DNA of 64,000 nucleotides from a virus, in the IMG/VR virus record IMGVR_UViG_3300032291_002524, positions 42,316 to 106,315 of that record; one strand, 5' to 3'. Under the pieces are notes generated by a model. That model saw nothing but the letters and a program-made list of their open reading frames with translations. It was not told the origin of the DNA and did not search any database. Positions within the stretch are counted from its first letter, which is position 1; each line of letters begins with the position of its first letter. The position numbers and the translations under genes were made by a program. Of this stretch, positions 6,206 through 31,250 are shown piece after piece.

Positions 6206-8359
6206 TCAAAATAATTTATAGTTTCTCATTAAAGATTCCAACTGTTCCAAAGATAATGAATATCTTTTTTTAGTATAAGAACCTGATGATGACATTTCAA
6301 TAATCACATCATTGTCAGGTTCAACACTTACAACAGACATGTATGTACCTGGCATTGTTTTAACTTCTTTTTTAACATTAAATCCAAAATTCTTAATTAC
6401 GTAATCAATTGTCTCTTTATATTGGTCTATATTATCAAATATACCATCTTCATCATCAACTAAAGACTCATAAAATTCTTTTAAATAATATGTTGACTCT
6501 TTATGCCAAGATTCAATGAATTTAGTATCATCTCTATGTTCCCAATAATTTTCAGTAACATCGGTAGGACCATAATCTTCAACTTTTATTGCCAATAATT
6601 TACGTACTGAATAATTTGGGTCTTTACCATCTATTTTTTTATCTTCATAGAGTTTTAAAATATTATCGACCGTACTTACATAGTGTCTATATAGTTTCAC
6701 TTTATTAACACCAAACGCAGACATTACATCACCGTATTCTGTATTAATTGCATCTTTAACACCGGATTGAAATCCTATTTCCATTGAATATGTGTATTCA
6801 TCAACTAATCGACTATATAATTTTTCATTTGATGATAATAAATTTGCAACTTCTGAATAATATTTTGTTGAATCTTTATCTGATTTAGTTGAAAAAAGTT
6901 TTGGGTCCAATAATTTTACGATGTTATCCAAAATATCATTACCCTCATCACTTAAATACTCAAGAGCGTATCCTGCATCAAAATCTTGTTCAGCAGTGTA
7001 ACTATCAAAAAACTCATAATCACTACCATAATGACCAATTATACTTTGTATTACCGATATCGAATGTGAGTAAATTGAATATTTAAGAATGCTTTCTAAA
7101 TAATCATTACTTGATTCAAAAAATATGTGTAAATCATTACCATCAATTTCCAAATTTTCATCATACGCAAAGGCCTCATCCGCACTAATTTTTCCCGATT
7201 TAAAATTCAATAAAGTCTTATAATCGTTTGTGTTTATATTTAAAACATTAGAAATGATATCATCCATTCCTGGCATATTTGAATATAACGTATCAAAATT
7301 ACTTCTATTGTCTTGTTGGTCCCAAACCTCAATAGACTTTATCGACCCACGTTCATTTTTATTTACAGGTATCCTTAGGGCAAATTTTGAATATTTGTCA
7401 TCTCTTCCTTTTTTATTGATAACATAATAAAATTTAGAATTAGAGGTATAATCGTCAAAATATCTCGATGAATCCTTAGACGCGACACACCATTTGGTTT
7501 CACGACCATAGACACATGACGCATTATGTGTTAATGGTTGAACTATTAAATAATTTGAATCTTCATATATTTTTTTAGATTCTTTCTTTGCATTTTTTAT
7601 TTGTTCTCTTGTTGCCGTAAATTGTTTTAAGTGGTTGTAAAATTCTCTAAGAGATTGTATATCAGGATACGAATTAATGTCTTTTGGGGCTTTGCCAATT
7701 TTATCCCAAATATTTCCATAATTTGTTAAATCACCATTTTTAATTCGATTATTCCAATCATCAATTGAATACTGGTTGGTTTTATTTTCGATAAAATCCA
7801 TATATTCCGATACTCGCCTTAATGTTGTATCCAATCCTACGGGTGCTGGCTTGTTTCTTTCATCTTTTATTCGTTTAAAAAACCAAGGAATGTATTTTTT
7901 GTTATTTGATAAATCGGCAGCCCAAAGAGCATCAAAGAAAGATTTCTTAACCAATTCATCATCCCTTTCTTCCCAATCGATAGGTAATTCCAAATATTTT
8001 TGAAAAAAGTCGGACCGTTTATCTTCTCTAATTAAACCTTCAAATAGATTACTTAAATCTTCATCAGGACCATTTAGTATTACGTCGATATAATGTGATG
8101 TTTCAGAAATATCATCATTAATATCACCAATAAACTCTGTTTTATCACCATATTCGACGTAATATTTTCCGTCATTATCAATTATTAGTGTAAATATATC
8201 ATCGCCCTCAATAACATATTGTTCAGTACCAAGTGAATATATACCATCATAAACACAAGTTATATTTTTAGGTATAAAATCAAAATATTCAAGAATATCT
8301 AAAACTCTATCTAAATGTGAAAAATATGATTGGTCCTGTCCGTAATAAGTAATTTCCAT
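6206..8359 (-). CDS. Large phage protein with a PLT..S..YG..TKWC domain (PcfJ-like), paralogue of 48650 and 52288
   Basis: IVQPLTHNASCVYGRETKWCVAS shared with two other ORFs in the window. Confidence 0.6.
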   Translation of the reverse strand: MEITYYGQDQSYFSHLDRVLDILEYFDFIPKNITCVYDGIYSLGTEQYVIEGDDIFTLIIDNDGKYYVEYGDKTEFIGDINDDISETSHYIDVILNGPDEDLSNLFEGLIREDKRSDFFQKYLELPIDWEERDDELVKKSFFDALWAADLSNNKKYIPWFFKRIKDERNKPAPVGLDTTLRRVSEYMDFIENKTNQYSIDDWNNRIKNGDLTNYGNIWDKIGKAPKDINSYPDIQSLREFYNHLKQFTATREQIKNAKKESKKIYEDSNYLIVQPLTHNASCVYGRETKWCVASKDSSRYFDDYTSNSKFYYVINKKGRDDKYSKFALRIPVNKNERGSIKSIEVWDQQDNRSNFDTLYSNMPGMDDIISNVLNINTNDYKTLLNFKSGKISADEAFAYDENLEIDGNDLHIFFESSNDYLESILKYSIYSHSISVIQSIIGHYGSDYEFFDSYTAEQDFDAGYALEYLSDEGNDILDNIVKLLDPKLFSTKSDKDSTKYYSEVANLLSSNEKLYSRLVDEYTYSMEIGFQSGVKDAINTEYGDVMSAFGVNKVKLYRHYVSTVDNILKLYEDKKIDGKDPNYSVRKLLAIKVEDYGPTDVTENYWEHRDDTKFIESWHKESTYYLKEFYESLVDDEDGIFDNIDQYKETIDYVIKNFGFNVKKEVKTMPGTYMSVVSVEPDNDVIIEMSSSGSYTKKRYSLSLEQLESLMRNYKLF

Positions 8360-8416
8360 ATATAAATAAATACTTGTATTTGGAAGTTTAATAAAGTATT
8401 TATATATTTGTATAAG

Positions 8417-8498
8417 AAATCACGGGTGGCTCCCTTAATAGTTAAGGCTGACCTTAAGCATCTGACGTTATGTCTATACAGGGGGCGAAAGTGATTTT
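8417..8498 (+). ncRNA. Structured RNA of about 80 nt in the tmRNA leader
   Basis: Nested stems AAATCAC/GTGATTT, GCTCCCT/AGGGGGC, ATAG/CTAT and hairpin TTAAGG-CTGA-CCTTAA; follows the TATATTTG box at 8403-8410. Confidence 0.6.
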
Positions 8499-8518
8499 CA
8501 TAAGTTCTTTGAAAATAT

Positions 8519-8901
8519 GGGGATGACACAGAATTGATTGGCGTGGTTAGTCAATTGGTGCACGTATGAGCTGAATTAACTCATTAAAAACTGATTTAAA
8601 AACACAAACGGCAACGTTTTAAATAAAATGGCTGCTTGCGGTTTAATCCGTGAAGACGCTGCTGTTGTAGCTTAATCAGCACAACACACTCAGGTCGGGG
8701 GACATATAACCTAGGAACAGAAGTCTTTAGAGGTGTGGTTTCTATCTTAAAAGAAACAAGTGGAGGATTAGTTCTCAGTAAACCGAACCACTATAAAATA
8801 AGGGAATTGTGAATTTCGGAACATTAGCAAATGTTGACCTAAACGTGTAGGACCTTTTGGTTAAGACGAACAAGACCGCGGGGCAGTGCCGCGCATCTCC
8901 A
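8519..8901 (+). ncRNA. ssrA: tmRNA; predicted tag (A)GNVLNKMAACGLIREDAAVVA at 8610-8675
   Basis: Acceptor GGGGATG/CATCTCC-A with G3.U70, T-arm CGCGG-GGCAGTG-CCGCG, 383 nt long, internal ORF ending in an Ala-rich hydrophobic tail. Confidence 0.93.
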
Positions 8902-8955
8902 GGCTCACAATTGAATACCTCCACGTGGTGTGAGCTGGGTAACGCTAAATTCAAT
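8902..8955 (+). ncRNA. Minimal HDV-like (theta-type) self-cleaving ribozyme
   Basis: P1 GGCTCAC/GTGAGCT (G1.U), P2 ATTGAAT/ATTCAAT, P3 ACC/GGT, L3 TCCACGT, P1.1 GG, J4/2 CTAA. Confidence 0.88.
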
Positions 8956-8983
8956 AATCATTACAGTTATTAATTAAAAATTA

Positions 8984-9012
8984 AAGTGGTCAAATTCGAC
9001 CACTTTTTTTTT
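8984..9012 (+). terminator. Intrinsic terminator of the tmRNA transcript
   Basis: AAAGTGGTC-AAATTC-GACCACTTT followed by a T-run. Confidence 0.85.
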
Positions 9013-9061
9013 GTGCATTTAAAATCTATTTAGTATCTTTGTATTACTAAACACCACCACT

Positions 9062-18356: not shown

Positions 18357-19007
18357 ATGAAATTAGTTTTAAAACCAGGACAAAAATTATTTTTTACCAG
18401 TGATACGCATTATAATCACTCAAATATTTGTCGAGCGACCACAAATTGGGTTGGTTCTGAAAATTTGACTCGTGATTTTAAATCTTTGGAGCACATGAAT
18501 TCAACTTTGGTTAATAATATTAATGAAGTTGTTGGTGAAGATGATATTTTAATCCACTTGGGAGACTGGTCTTTCGGCGGATTTGAACAAATTGAAGAAT
18601 TTAGAAATAAAATCTTGTGTAAGAATATTCATTTGATTTATGGTAATCATGACCATCACATTAGAAGAAATAAAGAAAATATTCAACGATTATTTTCTTC
18701 AACCCAAGATTATTTAAATCTTGATTTAAGAATTCCTAATGGGAAAAATACTGATAAATTAACATTAGTTTGTATGCACTACCCAATCGCAAGTTGGGAC
18801 AGCATGAACAACGGTGTTATACATTTACACGGTCACGTTCACTTACCACCAAACCTGAGAATTGCGGAAGGTAGAGCCATGGATGTCGGTGTTGATGGTA
18901 ATAACCTATATCCAATTTCGATTCAAGAAATCAAATCTTTAATGAAAGGTAGACCGGTTAAAAAATTGGTTTTACCGAAAGACCATCACGAAACAAATAA
19001 TAAATAA
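18357..19007 (+). CDS. Calcineurin-like metallophosphoesterase
   Basis: SDTH, LGD, GNHD, HYP and HGHVH motifs. Confidence 0.92.
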   Translation: MKLVLKPGQKLFFTSDTHYNHSNICRATTNWVGSENLTRDFKSLEHMNSTLVNNINEVVGEDDILIHLGDWSFGGFEQIEEFRNKILCKNIHLIYGNHDHHIRRNKENIQRLFSSTQDYLNLDLRIPNGKNTDKLTLVCMHYPIASWDSMNNGVIHLHGHVHLPPNLRIAEGRAMDVGVDGNNLYPISIQEIKSLMKGRPVKKLVLPKDHHETNNK

Positions 19008-19019
19008 TAAAATTAAAAC

Positions 19020-19439
19020 ATGGAAAATATCACAAACGATAAAGTAATTATACTATTGCGTGGAATTCCTGGCTCGGGCAAATCCACTATAGCTAAAATG
19101 ATTGTGGGAAATGAAAAAGAGTACCGTCACAAAGAAGCTGACATGTATTTTGTTGACGAAAATGGTGATTATAAGTTTAAACCAAGTCAAATAAGAGATG
19201 CTCATCAATGGTGTCAAGAAAGTGTTGATTTTTTAATGAGTCATTCTCATTCCCCTGTCGTGGTATCAAACACATTCACACAAGAATGGGAAATGGAACC
19301 ATATTACAAAATGGCTGAAAAGTATGGTTATAGAGTTCACTCACTAATTGTTGAAAACCGCCACGGTGGTATAAATGAACACGGTGTTCCTGAAGACAAG
19401 TTACAAGCGATGAGAGACCGATTTGAAGTAAAATTATAA
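19020..19439 (+). CDS. P-loop polynucleotide kinase-like protein (AAA_33)
   Basis: LRGIPGSGKST, EADMYF, VSNT, HGVP. Confidence 0.85.
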   Translation: MENITNDKVIILLRGIPGSGKSTIAKMIVGNEKEYRHKEADMYFVDENGDYKFKPSQIRDAHQWCQESVDFLMSHSHSPVVVSNTFTQEWEMEPYYKMAEKYGYRVHSLIVENRHGGINEHGVPEDKLQAMRDRFEVKL

Positions 19440-19457
19440 AAAAATTATAAAAAAATT

Positions 19458-19856
19458 ATGAAAAAAATATTATTTCTATTATTCTTGTTACCCATGTCTA
19501 TATTTGGACAATATGTAATGACACCAACCCATTATGATTCGGAGCACGCGGCCAAACATATAATGAAAGGACATATTAAAATGTTTGTTTCAGACACTGT
19601 AAAGTTTGTGACTGAAAAAAAACGTGAGAGATATATTACTGATTGCGACGCAACACCAAATCAAGTAAAGACCAAATTAGATAAAGTATTTAAACAAGGT
19701 ATTCTTGAACATGTTAGCAAACGAGATGGTGGATACATTTTTACCATTGCTGTTATTGACCCAAACGATAATACCAAAATTATTAATTATTGTACCTTTC
19801 ATGTTGATGAATTAAATCAAAAAATTACTGAAATTGAAATTTTACTAGGAGAATAA
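19458..19856 (+). CDS. Secreted hypothetical protein
   Basis: Signal peptide MKKILFLLFLLPMSIFG-Q. Confidence 0.65.
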   Translation: MKKILFLLFLLPMSIFGQYVMTPTHYDSEHAAKHIMKGHIKMFVSDTVKFVTEKKRERYITDCDATPNQVKTKLDKVFKQGILEHVSKRDGGYIFTIAVIDPNDNTKIINYCTFHVDELNQKITEIEILLGE

Positions 19857-19865
19857 AAACAAACT

Positions 19866-20546
19866 ATGAACAATACAGATTTTAAAAACTATTTTACCAA
19901 ACACTTGGGTAAAGGCTCATTAATGTTGGATTATTACAACCAAAGAATTGAAGATTCGATGACACCTTATATTTTGGAAGAAAGAGAGATGAGAGTGACC
20001 CAGATGGATATTTTTTCACGATTAATGAGGGACCGTTTACTATGGGTGGCGGGGCCTGTTGATGATAACATGTCCACAGTTGTCCAAGCACAATTAATGT
20101 ATTTAGATTCGGTTAATAATATGGACATAACGATGCACATTGATTCGCCAGGTGGCTCTGTTAAATCCGGTTTATCGATGATTGACGTTATGGATTATAT
20201 ATCATGTGATATTCACACCATTAATACCGGTATGGCAGCATCCATGGGTTCCGTGTTGTTAGGCGCTGGAACCAAAGGTAAACGTTCGTCTTTAAGATTT
20301 TCACGTACCATGTTACACCAATCTTCAGGGGGTTTCCGTGGAAATATCCAAGACGCTAAGATTGATATGATTGAGTGGGAGAAAGTGAATAAGATTTTAT
20401 TTGATTTGTTAGGTTCATATTGTGATAAATCGGCAGAACAAGTAATGGAAGACGCTTCTCGTGACCTGTGGTTAGATTCCAAATCTGCGTTAGAATACGG
20501 AATTATTGACGAAATTATTACATCAAAAAATAAAATGAAAAAATAA
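19866..20546 (+). CDS. clpP: ATP-dependent Clp protease proteolytic subunit
   Basis: MDIFSRLMRDR, IDSPGGSV, GMAASMG (Ser), MLHQ (His), RDLWL (Asp), YGIIDEI. Confidence 0.96.
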   Translation: MNNTDFKNYFTKHLGKGSLMLDYYNQRIEDSMTPYILEEREMRVTQMDIFSRLMRDRLLWVAGPVDDNMSTVVQAQLMYLDSVNNMDITMHIDSPGGSVKSGLSMIDVMDYISCDIHTINTGMAASMGSVLLGAGTKGKRSSLRFSRTMLHQSSGGFRGNIQDAKIDMIEWEKVNKILFDLLGSYCDKSAEQVMEDASRDLWLDSKSALEYGIIDEIITSKNKMKK

Positions 20547-20547
20547 A

Positions 20548-21399
20548 ATGAAAAAGTTATTATTAGGGTTGCTAATGATGTTGTCGATGACAGCACAAGC
20601 ACAGACAAAATGCGATTGGTCAGGGTATGAAATGAGAAAAACTTATCAAAGTTATAATCATTTTGAATTTAGAACTAACTTATATGATGATACTTGTATC
20701 ACATACAACTGGTTAGTTTATGATTATCAGACAAGAAAAGTAGATACATTATATGAGATTATTACAGGAGCTGTTCAAGTACGGTTTAACGTAAAAGGAA
20801 GATATAAATTAGGAATCAGAGCATACAATCGATGTACTGATTGTGATACTACATTCCAAACAGAAATTGATATTACAGTGTATGGTGAAAAAGCTAAATT
20901 GAGTTATAAACCATCAATTAAAGACTGTAAAACATATACCTTTGAAATGGAGAATATGAAGGATTCTTGTATGTCTTATATGTATGAAATTTGGGATGCT
21001 ACTGAATATGCATCTAAAATGACAGATAAGGAATGGAAATCGCATTCAGATAGTATGTTTTATTTTGATTACGAGTTTAATGAAAATAATATAGAATACT
21101 ACTCTCAGAAATCAGAACGAGTGCTGGACTTTACATTTCCTGATTCAGGACGTTATATGATTTTAACATACTTACAAAATGCCTGTACTGAAATTGACAC
21201 GTTTATTTTTACTAAAATTGTGGTATGTCCATCTGAAGTAACTACTAGTGTTAAAAATATTGTTAAAAACAATGATATTAAAATTATCGGGTATTATGAC
21301 CTAATGGGTAGACAAGTTGATTATATGAGACCTAATGAGGTATATATCGTACTATATAGTAATGGACATCGTAGAAAAGTAATGCAAGTACAGAACTAA
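20548..21399 (+). CDS. Secreted beta-rich (PKD-like) protein with a T9SS-like C-terminal domain
   Basis: Signal peptide ...AQA-Q; C-terminus YYDLMGRQV....EVYIVLYSNG.RRKVM. Confidence 0.6.
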   Translation: MKKLLLGLLMMLSMTAQAQTKCDWSGYEMRKTYQSYNHFEFRTNLYDDTCITYNWLVYDYQTRKVDTLYEIITGAVQVRFNVKGRYKLGIRAYNRCTDCDTTFQTEIDITVYGEKAKLSYKPSIKDCKTYTFEMENMKDSCMSYMYEIWDATEYASKMTDKEWKSHSDSMFYFDYEFNENNIEYYSQKSERVLDFTFPDSGRYMILTYLQNACTEIDTFIFTKIVVCPSEVTTSVKNIVKNNDIKIIGYYDLMGRQVDYMRPNEVYIVLYSNGHRRKVMQVQN

Positions 21400-21410
21400 A
21401 TAAATTTTTA

Positions 21411-21443
21411 CAAACCCCAATCTTTAAAGGTTGGGGTTTTTTT
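21411..21443 (+). terminator. Intrinsic terminator
   Basis: AAACCCCAA-loop-TTGGGGTTT followed by a T-run. Confidence 0.75.
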
Positions 21444-21457
21444 CTTATATTTTAAAT

Positions 21458-22150
21458 ATGATGAAAAATTCACCAACAATAACTGTAATGTTTGCATACC
21501 TACTAACGATATTTTCTTTAGTTATGGTATCATCTTACGTTTCACCAACCAATACGACACGGTTAGATAAAATTGACACAATTAAAGTTATTGATACAAT
21601 AAAACAAATCGATGTTAAAAACAAAGTATCACTTTTTATTGGTGATTCACATACAACAAATTTTAAAAATGGTTGGCAGAAGATTTTATGTGATAAAACA
21701 GGAATGGTGTGTATAAATTCGGCCATGGGTGGTAAAACAACATATTATATGTTGGACGTTGCTGTCCTTAAATTGAATAAAAATATTGATTATTGTTTTA
21801 TTTATGGTGGAGCAAATGACATGTATTCGAATTCGATATCACCTCAGGACGCTTTTGATAATATTAAATCCATATCAAGATTATGTAATTCACATGGTAT
21901 TAAGTGTTATATTTTAACAGGTTTTGACGCAACAAAATGCACAAAAACATCAAATATAAATTATCCAAAAAGATATTCAAAGTTTCAGGAATTATTATTA
22001 ACCGAAAAAATTAATGGTGCCAAAGTTATTGATACAAGAATTATTGAACGTAGTGATTGTTGGGATAATCTATGTCATATGAATCCAAAAGGTCATAAGA
22101 AAATTGCCGATAAAATTATTAAAGATTTAAACTTGAAAATCACACAATAA
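21458..22150 (+). CDS. Membrane-anchored SGNH/GDSL hydrolase
   Basis: FIGDS, GGAND, D..HMN; N-terminal TM helix. Confidence 0.85.
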   Translation: MMKNSPTITVMFAYLLTIFSLVMVSSYVSPTNTTRLDKIDTIKVIDTIKQIDVKNKVSLFIGDSHTTNFKNGWQKILCDKTGMVCINSAMGGKTTYYMLDVAVLKLNKNIDYCFIYGGANDMYSNSISPQDAFDNIKSISRLCNSHGIKCYILTGFDATKCTKTSNINYPKRYSKFQELLLTEKINGAKVIDTRIIERSDCWDNLCHMNPKGHKKIADKIIKDLNLKITQ

Positions 22151-22167
22151 TTTATTATTTTTGTAAA

Positions 22168-23187
22168 ATGGATTTAAACACCCTAAATAGATATTATGAA
22201 GATGGTTTACTTTACAAACAAGTACACCCAACACTTCCATTAACCATTTGGAACTATACAGAAAAAGTTCAATATAATGGTTTATGGGATGAAATCACAT
22301 TGTCCTGTCGTGGATTAGTAACCGATAATCTTGGTAATATTGTTGCAAGACCATTTAAAAAGTTCTTTAATCTTGAAGAGGGTAAACACACACCGACACA
22401 AGATTTTGAAGTTTTCGAAAAAATGGACGGTTCAATGGGTATAATGTTCAAATACTCAGGTGAAACAATATTTGCAACTCGAGGGTCGTTCATTTCTGAA
22501 CAATCAAAATGGATGTCCGATTTTGCAACCACCTATAATTATCAAGACATCATTGTCGATGGATTCACTTATTTATTTGAAATTATATATGAAAACAATA
22601 GGATTGTTGTCGATTACGGTAACCAAGAAAGATTAGTATTATTAGGGATTATCAATACTGAAACAGGTGAAGAACTACCATATAACGATATTTATTCTGA
22701 TGGTTGGGATATTGTTCAAAGATATGACGGAATTAAAGATTATTCTAATTTAAAGAATCTTGTTGAAGCTAATCATGAAGGATTCGTCATTCGTTTTTCT
22801 AATGGGGACCGAATGAAAATTAAGGGTGAAGAATATATTCGTCTTCACAGAATTATGACTAATTTATCAACAACTTCAATATGGGACGTATTGTCTAATG
22901 GTGGTAATATGGAAAATTTACTTATAAATGTTCCAGATGAGTTTTATAATAAAATTAAGGAATATGAAGATGAACTTAAGTTTATGTTTAACTCATTGAG
23001 TAATGATTATTGGATTCATTTTAGAGACATTCAAAATTTGATGGAAAAAGTTGGTGGTGACCGTAAGAACTTTGCTCACGCAGCAAAACAATATCAGTAC
23101 CCATCATTGTTGTTTGGTCTATTGGATGGTAAAGATGTTTCACCTATTATTTGGAAAATTATTAAACCTGAATTTAAAAAATTATAA
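22168..23187 (+). CDS. T4 Rnl1-like RNA ligase
   Basis: CRGLV, ARPFKKFFN, EKMDGS, ATRGSF, FEII, EGFV, MKIK. Confidence 0.92.
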   Translation: MDLNTLNRYYEDGLLYKQVHPTLPLTIWNYTEKVQYNGLWDEITLSCRGLVTDNLGNIVARPFKKFFNLEEGKHTPTQDFEVFEKMDGSMGIMFKYSGETIFATRGSFISEQSKWMSDFATTYNYQDIIVDGFTYLFEIIYENNRIVVDYGNQERLVLLGIINTETGEELPYNDIYSDGWDIVQRYDGIKDYSNLKNLVEANHEGFVIRFSNGDRMKIKGEEYIRLHRIMTNLSTTSIWDVLSNGGNMENLLINVPDEFYNKIKEYEDELKFMFNSLSNDYWIHFRDIQNLMEKVGGDRKNFAHAAKQYQYPSLLFGLLDGKDVSPIIWKIIKPEFKKL

Positions 23188-29528: not shown

Positions 29529-30221
29529 ATGAAAATAACATTTATTTCCGACACACATAATAAACATAAACAACTAAATGGTCTATTACCAGGTGGTGAC
29601 ATGATTATTCACGCGGGTGATATGTCAGGTATGGGATATAAACACGAAATTCAACAATTTTTAAAGTGGTATAATAATTTAGATAATTACACTCATAAGG
29701 TGTTTATCGCTGGTAACCATGATTGGGGATTTCAAACCGAACCCAAAATGTGTAAAGAACAATTGGATTTTTACGATAAGGTAACATACATCCAAGATAA
29801 CACAAAATTAATCGGTAATGAACATCAAACACCTGTTAAAGTTTATGGTTCTCCATGGCAACCTGAGTTTTATGATTGGGCATTTAACTTACCAAGAATG
29901 GGTTGGGAATTAGAACAAAAGTGGAATGATATTCCATTAGATACTGATATTTTAATTACACACGGACCTGCTTGGGGTCACTTAGACACAGTTAAAAGTT
30001 TAGGTGTTCCTTTGGGTTGTGAATTATTATCAGAAAGAATTAAAGTTGTTAAACCTAAAATTCACGTTTGTGGTCATATCCATACGGGATATGGTTATAA
30101 ATTTGATGGTGATACCCACTATTTTAATGCTGCGGTATTAGATGAGCAATATAATTTAACTCAAAAACCATTCACCGTGGAATGGAATCCTGAAACTAAT
30201 GAAATCGAATTTATAGATTAA
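29529..30221 (+). CDS. Metallophosphoesterase (MPPED/239FB-like)
   Basis: ISDTH, HAGD, IAGNHD, THGP, CGHIH. Confidence 0.92.
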   Translation: MKITFISDTHNKHKQLNGLLPGGDMIIHAGDMSGMGYKHEIQQFLKWYNNLDNYTHKVFIAGNHDWGFQTEPKMCKEQLDFYDKVTYIQDNTKLIGNEHQTPVKVYGSPWQPEFYDWAFNLPRMGWELEQKWNDIPLDTDILITHGPAWGHLDTVKSLGVPLGCELLSERIKVVKPKIHVCGHIHTGYGYKFDGDTHYFNAAVLDEQYNLTQKPFTVEWNPETNEIEFID

Positions 30222-30222
30222 T

Positions 30223-30801
30223 ATGAAAAAAGAATATAATCAATGGTATTGGAAATTATATAGATGGTTTAAGTGGGACGCAAAACATCTCCATAGAGAT
30301 GTAATTATAGGGGTTAAAAACCTTTGGAAATGGTTTCCTATTATTTGGAAAGACCGTGATTGGGATGATTTTTATATTTTTGAAGCTCTGAAACATAAGA
30401 TTAAAAATACTGCCGATTATACAGAAAAAAAACAAAGGTTTGTTGGTTGGGAAAAGGAAGTACGTTATATGAGAATATCCGTAAAGTTAATAGATAAGAT
30501 TCAAGATGAATTTTATTCGGCAGAATACTGTAACTATTTTGATATGGATGTTTCTTTCACCCCATCTAAAAATCACAAGGATTCATTTGAAGTCGATACT
30601 ACCATAAATAATGATAATGTTGACAAGTACATTTCAATGTACCCCCACGCTTATCGTAGGTTAATGAATGATAAGAATTTAATAAACTTTCAAAAAAGTT
30701 CTCGTTCAGTTGCTATGGGTATGGGTATTATACGTCATCGTAAAGCGAAAAAACTTCTTTTTAAGATATTAGAAGAAAGAATAGAAAATTGGTGGGATTA
30801 A
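30223..30801 (+). CDS. Conserved Trp-rich phage hypothetical protein
   Basis: WFPIIWKDRDWD...WWD. Confidence 0.7.
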   Translation: MKKEYNQWYWKLYRWFKWDAKHLHRDVIIGVKNLWKWFPIIWKDRDWDDFYIFEALKHKIKNTADYTEKKQRFVGWEKEVRYMRISVKLIDKIQDEFYSAEYCNYFDMDVSFTPSKNHKDSFEVDTTINNDNVDKYISMYPHAYRRLMNDKNLINFQKSSRSVAMGMGIIRHRKAKKLLFKILEERIENWWD

Positions 30802-30821
30802 ATAATTATAATAAAAAGAAA

Positions 30822-31250
30822 ATGAAAATGAAAAAATTATACTTGGACGATGTTAGAATACCTCGTCATTCATATCCGGCAATGTCAAGAAGAATTGGTT
30901 CAGATTCTGCCATATATCAAAATGATGATTGGAATATTGTTAGGACATATGATGAATTTGTAAATTGGATTAGTGAAAATGGGTTACCTGATATTGTGTC
31001 ATTCGACCACGACTTGGCGGATGAACACATTCAATATTATTTTGATAATGGTGGTAACGCAAACCCACCTGACCCCCAAAAAACAACTTTTGAGGAAAAA
31101 ACGGGGTATGATTGTGCTAAATGGTTGGTAGATTATTGTGTTAAAACGCAACAAAAATTACCTGAATATTTGGTTCATTCTGCAAATCCTGTTGGTGGAT
31201 ATAATATCTTGACGTATCTAAACAACGCAAAAAAACACACGAACATCTAA
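30822..31250 (+). CDS. Cyclic-phosphate-processing receiver-like domain protein
   Basis: LYLDDVR.P, VR.YDEF, SFDHDL, TGYDCAKWL, HSANPVG. Confidence 0.8.
   Translation: MKMKKLYLDDVRIPRHSYPAMSRRIGSDSAIYQNDDWNIVRTYDEFVNWISENGLPDIVSFDHDLADEHIQYYFDNGGNANPPDPQKTTFEEKTGYDCAKWLVDYCVKTQQKLPEYLVHSANPVGGYNILTYLNNAKKHTNI

What the first reader, a model, noticed from the sequence alone, without database searches (positions are those of the whole stretch)
8894..8955. Theta-type HDV-like ribozyme fused to the 3' end of a tmRNA
Seen: the tmRNA ends CATCTCC-A at 8901 with no encoded CCA. Base 8902 starts a complete minimal HDV fold: P1 GGCTCAC/GTGAGCT with G1.U, 1-nt J1/2, P2 ATTGAAT/ATTCAAT, P3 ACC/GGT, L3 TCCACGT, P1.1 GG, a vestigial P4 and J4/2 CTAA (putative catalytic C8945). 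Known: HDV-like ribozymes cut just 5' of G1, and theta ribozymes are described at phage tRNA 3' ends. Inference: self-cleavage releases the tmRNA exactly at its discriminator with a 2',3'-cyclic phosphate. Use on a tmRNA, in a phage with no sign of recoding, would extend the known role, and I saw no such ribozyme after the tRNAs here.
Basis: partly seen in the sequence, partly recalled or inferred. Interest (0 to 1): 0.87.

Follow-up and report, generated by a model that had tools for sequence, protein, structure and literature searches.

The report
Self-cutting ribozyme trims phage tmRNA
A 54-base self-cutting RNA of the hepatitis-delta ("theta") type starts at the base right after a phage's ribosome-rescue RNA (tmRNA) gene and most likely makes that RNA's 3' end, a job published so far only for phage tRNAs.

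Summary
A tmRNA gene (8519-8901, no encoded CCA) is followed at 8902 by a complete minimal HDV-like fold (8902-8955), then a 27-nt spacer and an intrinsic terminator.

- **Recurrence:** I found the same junction, ribozyme +1 directly after the tmRNA discriminator A, in 20 other viral or MAG contigs. They carry several unrelated tmRNA tag types.
- **Structure:** P1 and P3 pair in 100% of cells with 49 two-sided changes (0 of 500 shuffles reach this). P2 differs in sequence but pairs in every copy.
- **Gain or loss:** Two close relatives share the tmRNA, terminator and downstream gene but lack the 74-nt block. One encodes CCA instead.
- **Published status:** A one-base variant of this ribozyme, and exact copies of three other tmRNA-linked ones, sit in the "isolated" (non-tRNA) theta-ribozyme list of Kienbeck et al. 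2024. That paper never mentions tmRNA, and no paper I searched links the two.

It is therefore a true theta ribozyme in an unreported but natural context, and it explains part of the published orphan class. Self-cleavage, the cyclic-phosphate end and later CCA addition are inferred, not shown. This scan has already noted and followed up the same junction on other DNA, so it is not unique to this window.

The parts
8379..8410 (+). Promoter-like site: TTTG (8379-8382), 20-nt spacer, TATATTTG (8403-8410). This fits the Bacteroidota -33/-7 type.
   Evidence: Sequence. The sigma-70 scan lists an overlapping 9/12 match. The Bacteroidota consensus is from my own knowledge. Function not tested.
8519..8901 (+). 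tmRNA gene: acceptor stem with G3.U, a 21-codon tag frame ending in TAA, an unusual T-loop, discriminator A8901, no encoded CCA.
   Evidence: Rfam RF00023 47.2 bits, E 1.8e-17. The locus as aligned shows 79% mean column identity with L256 and L265, and the tag frame is kept. ARAGORN negative.
8894..8901 (+). 3' acceptor strand CATCTCC plus discriminator A. The predicted cut lies between 8901 and 8902.
   Evidence: Pairs with 8519-8525. The same junction is seen in 20 other contigs.
8902..8955 (+). Theta-type minimal HDV-like ribozyme. P1 8902-8908/8930-8936. J1/2 8909. P2 8910-8916/8949-8955. P3 8917-8919/8927-8929. L3 8920-8926. P1.1 8937-8938 with 8921-8922. L4 8939-8944. J4/2 8945-8948.
   Evidence: A one-base variant is listed as theta ribozyme no. 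3051 in Suppl. Data 2 of PMC10879173.
8945..8945 (+). Putative catalytic cytosine, first base of J4/2.
   Evidence: A C stands at this position in all 20 ribozymes parsed. In loci fetched with a pattern that did not specify J4/2, all 3 full-descriptor hits have C and none has only A, G or T.
8956..8982 (+). A+T-rich spacer. Its first ~20 nt belong to the 74-nt block that relatives L256 and L265 lack.
   Evidence: Alignment A6.
8983..9015 (+). Intrinsic terminator: 9-bp stem, 6-nt loop, then a T run. It is conserved in L256 and L265.
18357..19439 (+). Metallophosphoesterase (18357-19007) and polynucleotide-kinase-like P-loop protein (19020-19439). They are candidate healers of a 2',3'-cyclic phosphate end; the link to the ribozyme is inferred only.
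   Evidence: Pfam Metallophos and AAA_33. PHROG phosphoesterase and polynucleotide kinase; both also match phrog_8238.
22168..23187 (+). Rnl1-type RNA ligase, part of the same RNA-repair set. No link to the ribozyme is shown.
   Evidence: Pfam RNA_lig_T4_1, E 3.7e-18. phrog_562 and phrog_8238.
30789..31250 (+). Protein with a cyclic-phosphate-processing receiver domain (cREC_REC). No link to the ribozyme is shown.
   Evidence: Pfam PF20274, E 1.9e-22.

Best explanation
One transcript runs from a promoter near 8380-8410 to the terminator at 8983-9015. It carries a leader, the tmRNA and the ribozyme. As 8902-8955 is transcribed it folds into the nested double pseudoknot of a minimal HDV-like (theta) ribozyme. 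C8945 and a bound Mg2+ then catalyse attack of the 2'-OH of A8901 on the 8901/8902 phosphate.

This frees the tmRNA exactly at its discriminator with a 2',3'-cyclic phosphate. It discards the ribozyme, spacer and terminator as a roughly 113-nt piece with a 5'-OH. The cyclic phosphate must then be opened and removed, CCA added, and the tmRNA charged with alanine. These steps most likely use host enzymes, with the phage's own phosphoesterase and kinase as possible helpers.

Shown: the fold, its conservation and covariation, its exact position, and its gain or loss as a cassette. Inferred: cleavage, end chemistry, healing and CCA addition. The likely benefit is a precise tmRNA 3' end that needs no host 3' endo- or exonucleases.
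For: 1. Anatomy is complete and in HDV order. Two HDV-like Rfam models start exactly at 8902 (E 7.9e-6 per contig).
2. Twenty other contigs have a tmRNA (Rfam, ARAGORN, or identical flank) whose discriminator A is followed at once by the ribozyme's +1 base: L004, L005, L007, L030, L034, L063, L116, L121, L125, L126, L127, L129, L170, L341, L359, L361, L430, L443, L455, L466.
3. On 15 ribozymes, P1 and P3 pair in 100% of cells. There are 49 two-sided changes, 0/500 shuffles reach this, and slid controls pair 33-49%. P2 is 5-9 bp, differs in sequence and pairs in all 20 parsed.
4. In the tmRNA family sharing a 25-nt body motif (107 contigs), the 3' flank starts with CCA in about 63, C in about 27 and CC in 2. 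It starts with G in only 4, and all 4 of those are HDV-like ribozymes.
5. L256 and L265 share the tmRNA, terminator and downstream gene but lack the 74-nt block. L265 has CCA there.
6. A one-base variant, plus exact copies of the L005 and L007 ribozymes, are in the published list of isolated theta ribozymes; an exact L004 copy is in Suppl. Data 4 (minimal HDV-like hits) and near-copies are in that list. Four theta ribozymes were shown to self-cleave with Mg2+ and to be killed by C-to-U (PMC10879173).
7. P1 and P3 still form in the minimum-energy fold with tmRNA and terminator context.
Against: - There are no cleavage data for this or any tmRNA-linked copy, and RNA-seq runs could not be reached.
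- Both Rfam HDV hits are below their gathering scores.
- A terminator lies only about 80 nt downstream, and about 27 relatives manage a CCA-less tmRNA without any ribozyme. The ribozyme is therefore dispensable, and its benefit is unproven.
- A 2',3'-cyclic phosphate blocks CCA addition until it is removed.
- No CCA-adding enzyme is found in this 34%-complete contig. None is found in three complete ribozyme-bearing phage genomes either. The pathway must therefore lean on host enzymes that I could not identify.
- The window's tmRNA has a non-canonical T-loop and scores only at the Rfam cut-off.
Confidence: 0.8

Rival explanations
1. Timed gate. The ribozyme cuts as above, but the point is the blocked end. 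The 2',3'-cyclic phosphate keeps the phage tmRNA uncharged and exonuclease-resistant until phage-encoded end-healing proteins appear. These would be the phosphoesterase at 18357, the kinase-like protein at 19020 and the cREC protein at 30789. Phage trans-translation would then switch on at a set stage of infection.
For: The window encodes a split Pnkp-like set (phosphoesterase, kinase-like protein, Rnl1 ligase) and a cyclic-phosphate-processing receiver domain. Kienbeck et al. also raise regulation as a possible role for theta ribozymes.
Against: Such repair sets are common in large phages as a counter to anticodon nucleases, so they need no link to the ribozyme. Three complete ribozyme-bearing phage genomes lack a CCA-adding enzyme, which points to host enzymes doing the downstream steps. 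No co-occurrence test was done. No regulatory element is visible in the ribozyme.
Confidence: 0.1
2. Neutral or selfish cassette. The 74-nt block spreads among phage RNA genes because tRNA-like 3' ends tolerate it. It may cut, but it gives no benefit over ordinary 3' trimming, or this copy is an inactive relic.
For: Presence is patchy: about 4% of one tmRNA family carry it, and the closest relatives L256 and L265 lack it. The indel has sharp edges. The same ribozyme type sits behind many different tRNAs.
Against: All core positions are intact and the helices covary, which requires selection on the fold. The position is always +1 after the discriminator, never a few bases off, in 21 of 21 cases. 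A cassette without function would not keep that register or its catalytic C.
Confidence: 0.06
3. The ribozyme serves what lies downstream rather than the tmRNA. It would give a defined 5'-OH end to a downstream RNA, or uncouple downstream genes from the strong tmRNA promoter.
For: HDV-like ribozymes define the 5' ends of retrotransposon RNAs (my own knowledge). In L005 an ORF starts about 20 nt after the ribozyme.
Against: In the window only a 27-nt spacer and a terminator follow. Nothing downstream is conserved between copies, whereas the upstream partner is always a tmRNA or tRNA end.
Confidence: 0.04

Closest known systems
Theta ribozymes: minimal HDV-like ribozymes abutting the 3' end of phage tRNAs (Kienbeck et al. 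2024, Nat Commun 15:1559, PMC10879173)
   Same: Same fold, same conserved core (L3 T-CC-NCGN, GG, short L4, J4/2 CTAA) and same size. Same placement of +1 at the discriminator of a CCA-less tRNA-like acceptor. Same kind of host: large Caudoviricetes-type contigs with many tRNAs. A one-base variant is in the authors' own list.
   Different: The upstream partner is a tmRNA, not a tRNA. The paper and its held supplements never mention tmRNA, and these sequences are filed there as 'isolated'. In this phage none of the ~30 tRNAs has the ribozyme, and there is no sign of stop-codon recoding.
HDV-like ribozymes of Rfam: RF02682 (F. prausnitzii) and RF01787 (drz-agam-1)
   Same: Same double-pseudoknot topology. 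Both models align from base 8902 with matching P3/L3/P1 or P2.
   Different: Scores are below both gathering cut-offs (27.5 vs 44; 31.8 vs 37). The P4 helix of those families is replaced here by a 6-nt loop.
Ordinary bacterial tmRNA 3' maturation by host RNases, followed by trimming to an encoded CCA or by CCA addition (textbook knowledge, E. coli and B. subtilis; not checked in papers here)
   Same: The end product is the same: a tmRNA ending in discriminator A plus CCA, ready for AlaRS.
   Different: Here an RNA element in cis would make the cut, leaving a cyclic phosphate rather than a 3'-OH. About 90 relatives of this very tmRNA family use the ordinary design, with CCA or C followed by a terminator.
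Group I intron in the T-loop of tmRNA genes
   Same: It is another self-processing RNA embedded in a tmRNA gene. It is present in five members of this same phage tmRNA family (L253: RF00028 71.4 bits; L259, L301, L303, L314 by sequence).
   Different: It is an intron inside the T-loop that is spliced out, not a 3' trailer cutter. It uses a different ribozyme class.

Membership tests
Theta ribozyme (minimal HDV-like) | Nested double pseudoknot with P1 (6-7 bp), P2 (7 bp), P3 (3 bp) and P1.1 (2 bp) in HDV order | tested here: met
   All helices are present at 8902-8955. P1 and P3 pair 100% with 49 two-sided changes over 15 sequences. P2 pairs in all 20 parsed. P1.1 is invariant here, but L341 shows GC/GC in place of CC/GG.
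Theta ribozyme (minimal HDV-like) | G at +1, usually in a G.U pair, with cleavage 5' of it | tested here: met
   G8902 pairs with T8936. The pair is G.U in 11, G-C in 3 and A-U in 1 of 15. Cleavage itself was not tested.
Theta ribozyme (minimal HDV-like) | Catalytic C as the first base of J4/2 (C-N-R-A), and a short L4 in place of P4 | tested here: met
   C8945-TAA, with the 6-nt L4 GTAACG. A C is kept at this position in every parsed copy.
Theta ribozyme (minimal HDV-like) | Fits the authors' final RNArobo descriptor | tested here: met
   The descriptor figure is not held as text. However, Suppl. Data 2 lists no. 3051, which is identical except for the last P1' base (C for T). Exact copies of the L005 and L007 ribozymes are also listed there.
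Theta ribozyme (minimal HDV-like) | 'tRNA-associated': cleavage site within 5 nt of a tRNA 3' end | tested here: not met
   No tRNA lies here. The partner is the tRNA-like end of a tmRNA at distance 0. By the paper's definition this copy counts as 'isolated'.
Theta ribozyme (minimal HDV-like) | Mg2+-dependent self-scission abolished by C-to-U | not testable with these tools
   Shown for four tRNA-linked members only (PMC10879173).
Rfam HDV-like families RF02682 / RF01787 | Score at or above the gathering cut-off | tested here: not met
   27.5 < 44 and 31.8 < 37. These models include a P4 helix that theta ribozymes lack.
tmRNA (RF00023) | Score at or above the gathering cut-off, and an acceptor stem with G3.U70 plus discriminator A | tested here: met
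   47.2 vs 47, E 1.8e-17. GGGGATG pairs with CATCTCC and A8901 follows.
tmRNA (RF00023) | Tag reading frame kept among relatives | tested here: met
   The 21-codon frame, stop and mostly conservative changes are shared with L256, L265 and L063.
tmRNA (RF00023) | Canonical T-loop (GTTCGAnnC type) | tested here: not met
   The loop is GGCAGTG. L256 shares it with a compensatory stem change, while L265 has the canonical loop. This probably explains why ARAGORN misses the gene.

The most novel reading that the evidence does not exclude
HDV-like ribozymes are a portable 3'-end module for the whole class of tRNA-shaped RNAs in phages, and they do more than trim. On tmRNA, the cyclic-phosphate end they leave would be a deliberate lock that phage-encoded end-healing enzymes open, so that the phage controls when its own tagging system runs. 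In permuted two-piece tmRNA genes (L128), the same module would cut the acceptor piece free, taking over the processing step that creates the two-piece RNA.
Probability: 0.12. Interest if true: 0.8.

Novelty: new variant of a known kind. Interest (0 to 1): 0.58.

Why it matters
- It assigns a partner and a likely job to part of the published "isolated" theta ribozymes. About 6% of an unanchored sample of 105 in IMG/VR abut a tmRNA.
- It shows that cis-ribozyme 3' processing extends from tRNAs to tmRNA, and that it is independent of stop-codon recoding.
- It gives a natural set of three designs in near-identical phages: ribozyme, encoded CCA, or neither. Comparing them could show what a ribozyme-made end buys.
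- It raises a concrete biochemical question: who removes the 2',3'-cyclic phosphate before CCA addition and alanylation?
- Annotation pipelines that pair ribozyme hits only with tRNAscan-SE calls will miss this class.

Tried and rejected
- **INPHARED phages:** blastn of the locus found no match.
- **ARAGORN:** it finds no tmRNA in the window. The whole-window Rfam scan at gathering level does not list it either. Only the short-stretch scan does.
- **Relaxed junction pattern without J4/2:** Only three of them passed my full descriptor.
- **Same pattern on prokaryote genomes:** Only 1 of 120 passed the descriptor (L170), so nothing can be said about frequency in bacteria.
- **MAFFT alignments A1 and A2:** these put the gaps in the wrong places for structure counts. 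I replaced them with a covariance-model alignment and a scripted parse.
- **Thermodynamic fold alone:** z = -0.37, which is uninformative for a pseudoknot.
- **Published supplements:** searching for the ribozyme as one unbroken string failed because the sequences there are split by bars. Searching by helix words worked.
- **CCA-adding enzyme, SmpB and DRB0094-type ligase in the contig:**
  - None was found; the only ligase hit is a weak 19-bit match.
  - The contig is only 34% complete, so absence is not shown.
- **My heuristic for calling tmRNAs from acceptor pairing:** it missed cases that ARAGORN or Rfam confirmed, so I did not use it.
- **Idea that the phage brings its own CCA enzyme:**
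  - Weakened: only 1 of 5 ribozyme-bearing contigs has one.
  - None of the three complete genomes does.

Full report
**What is in the sequence**

- The 5' strand GGGGATG (8519-8525) pairs with CATCTCC (8894-8900), including the G3.U pair that marks alanine acceptors.
- A8901 is the discriminator, and GGC follows, so no CCA is encoded.
- From G8902 the helices come in HDV order:
  - P1 is 8902-8908 with 8930-8936; its first pair is G.U.
  - A8909 is J1/2.
  - P2 is 8910-8916 with 8949-8955.
  - P3 is 8917-8919 with 8927-8929, around the L3 loop TCCACGT.
  - GG 8937-8938 can pair with C8921-C8922 (P1.1).
  - A six-base L4 follows, then J4/2 CTAA with C8945 first.
- A 27-nt A+T-rich spacer and a strong intrinsic terminator (8983-9006 plus a T run) follow.
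- A Bacteroidota-style promoter-like site lies at 8379-8410: TTTG, 20 nt, TATATTTG.

**Independent detection**

ARAGORN finds about 28 tRNAs in the window but no tmRNA. In an 801-nt scan, Rfam gives three relevant hits:
- tmRNA at 8519-8902: 47.2 bits against a cut-off of 47, E 1.8e-17.
- RF01787: 31.8 bits, E 2.5e-4, starting exactly at 8902.
- RF02682: 27.5 bits, E 6e-3, also starting exactly at 8902.

Both HDV-like hits are below their gathering scores. That is expected, because those models include a P4 helix that this RNA lacks. The window is part of a 106,315-nt IMG/VR virus contig estimated 34% complete, and this is the only HDV-like hit in it. I built a covariance model from this copy and two others.

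**Recurrence elsewhere**

Three junction-anchored pattern scans (two of IMG/VR, one of prokaryote genomes) required only the tmRNA-type end, the L3 core, GG and, in two of them, a J4/2 word. None required P1 or P2 pairing. Each returned loci in which Rfam or ARAGORN places a tmRNA ending at the base before the ribozyme's +1. A scan with a 25-nt motif from the tmRNA body and an unanchored ribozyme scan added more.

In all I count 20 contigs besides the window:
- Confirmed by Rfam or ARAGORN: L004, L005, L007, L030, L034, L063, L116, L121, L125, L126, L127, L129, L341, L359, L361, L443 and L455.
- Read by eye: L170.
- Identical flank to a confirmed case: L430 and L466.

In every case the ribozyme starts at distance 0 from the discriminator A, and no CCA is encoded. 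The tmRNAs carry several unrelated tag peptides, so the junction is not one lineage copied many times. L004's contig has the ribozyme behind both a tRNA-Pro and the tmRNA.

**Covariation**

On 15 ribozymes aligned to the model, all 150 P1 and P3 cells form standard pairs.
- There are 49 two-sided changes.
- No shuffle out of 500 reaches this.
- Partner-slid controls pair only 33-49%.

The register does not depend on the model fit. The P1 5' strand is anchored by the tmRNA or tRNA end, and the 3' strand by the invariant L3/P3 core. A scripted parse shows P2 of 5-9 bp, with different sequences, pairing in all 20 copies. L341 carries GC/GC where the others have CC/GG at P1.1, a change also seen in published theta sequences. 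Wherever the pattern did not fix the J4/2 base, the full-descriptor hits have C there.

**The cassette comes and goes**

The 25-nt body motif finds 107 IMG/VR contigs. The flank after the discriminator starts as follows:

| 3' flank starts with | Contigs | Note |
|---|---|---|
| CCA | about 63 | usually followed by a terminator |
| C | about 27 | usually followed by a terminator |
| CC | 2 | |
| G | 4 | window, L034, L063, L341; all four are HDV-like ribozymes |

The closest relatives are L256 and L265. The three loci as aligned show 79% mean column identity. Both relatives share the tmRNA, the terminator and the downstream gene with the window, but they lack a 74-nt block that begins exactly at 8902. 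L265 has CCA there and L256 a single C. So three different 3' designs exist in near-identical phages.

**Relation to the literature**

Kienbeck et al. 2024 (PMC10879173) defined theta ribozymes. They showed four tRNA-linked ones to self-cleave with Mg2+ and to be killed by C-to-U. They proposed tRNA 3' trailer removal as the function, with emphasis on suppressor tRNAs and recoding. They paired ribozyme hits with tRNAscan-SE calls only.

The word tmRNA occurs neither in the text nor in the nine held supplement files. Suppl. Data 2 is their list of "isolated", non-tRNA-associated theta ribozymes. It contains the following:
- no. 3051, which equals the window's ribozyme except for one base;
- no. 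3563, equal to L005's;
- no. 2160, equal to L007's;
- near-copies of L004's. An exact copy of L004's sits in Suppl. Data 4, the list of minimal HDV-like hits from the initial search motif.

The supplement files were cut when stored, so the overlap is a lower bound. Part of that list also comes from short reads whose context could not be seen.

Four further full-text searches found no paper that links tmRNA with an HDV-like or other self-cleaving ribozyme. In a complete, unanchored IMG/VR scan for one common core subtype (110 loci, 105 with +1 assigned), 62 ribozymes follow an ARAGORN tRNA and at least 6 follow a tmRNA.

**Mechanism and what is not shown**

From the established chemistry of HDV-like ribozymes, the cut should leave A8901 with a 2',3'-cyclic phosphate and G8902 with a 5'-OH. 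That end cannot take CCA until it is healed.

The window encodes several RNA-repair proteins:
- a phosphoesterase next to a polynucleotide-kinase-like protein (18357-19439);
- an Rnl1 ligase (22168-23187);
- a second metallophosphoesterase (29529-30221);
- a cyclic-phosphate-processing receiver-domain protein (30789-31250).

These could act on such an end, but they are equally explained as an anti-anticodon-nuclease repair kit. No CCA-adding enzyme or SmpB is seen in the contig. Among five other ribozyme-bearing contigs only one has a CCA-adding enzyme, and none of the three complete genomes does. Host enzymes must therefore suffice in general. Twenty-two of the window's 30 tRNAs also lack CCA, so CCA addition is needed in this system anyway. 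I could obtain no expression or cleavage data.

**Verdict**

- The element is a genuine theta ribozyme by every sequence criterion I could test. Its partner is new.
- It is a modest but real extension of a known system, and it explains part of a published orphan class.
- This scan has already noted and followed up the same junction on other genomes. Those notes agree with what I found independently.
- The most interesting open points are the fate of the cyclic-phosphate end and the permuted tmRNA case, L128.

Noticed in passing
L128:190-640 (+): This looks like a permuted (two-piece) phage tmRNA gene. A T-arm plus 3' acceptor strand ends at 302, and an HDV-like ribozyme with a long P4 starts at 303. 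A terminator-like hairpin follows, then the 5' acceptor strand GGGGTTG and a tag frame from about 489. ARAGORN calls a permuted tmRNA at 213-670. RF04321 gives 41.3 bits, below its cut-off of 47. The ribozyme would free the acceptor piece.
   Followed up: partly
L253:8399-8629 (+); also L259, L301, L303, L314: Five members of the same phage tmRNA family have a group I intron inserted in the T-loop (L253: RF00028 71.4 bits). One tmRNA family therefore hosts two different ribozyme classes in different members.
   Followed up: partly
window 8876-8893; L256: The tmRNA T-loop is GGCAGTG instead of the usual GTTCGAnnC type. Relative L256 shares it with a compensatory change in the stem, so it seems selected. 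This probably explains why ARAGORN misses the gene. The effect on SmpB or EF-Tu binding is unknown.
   Followed up: partly
L125:269-682, L127:8537-8946 (-), L341:7568-7981 (-): GOLLD RNA (RF02032, 319-327 bits) lies within about 1-2 kb of the ribozyme-bearing tmRNA in three related contigs.
   Followed up: no
L030:1756 (+), L443: These ribozyme variants have A instead of G at +1, forming an A-U first pair in P1. They still sit directly after the tmRNA discriminator.
   Followed up: partly
L341 (+), just after the tmRNA 6442-6840: This tmRNA-linked ribozyme has L3 TGCACGT and GC after P1' in place of CC/GG. That is a compensatory change in P1.1. It also has a real P4 hairpin.
   Followed up: partly
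window 31766-51784: Only 8 of 30 tRNA genes encode CCA. Most of the others are followed by CAA or CTAAAT. None has a ribozyme, so their 3' ends must be made by another route than the tmRNA's.
   Followed up: partly
window 8416-8499: A G+C-rich structured leader lies between the promoter-like site and the tmRNA 5' end. No Rfam family matches it at E below 1. Another note of this scan covers it.
   Followed up: no
window 18357-23187: The phosphoesterase, the kinase-like protein and the Rnl1 ligase each match a different part of one 737-aa PHROG family (phrog_8238). They look like a split version of a fused kinase-phosphatase-ligase repair enzyme.
   Followed up: partly
L170:4969-5363 (+): A contig binned to a Candidatus Saccharibacteria MAG carries a tmRNA with a very long tag, followed by the ribozyme. 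It may be a phage or prophage contig in the bin.
   Followed up: no
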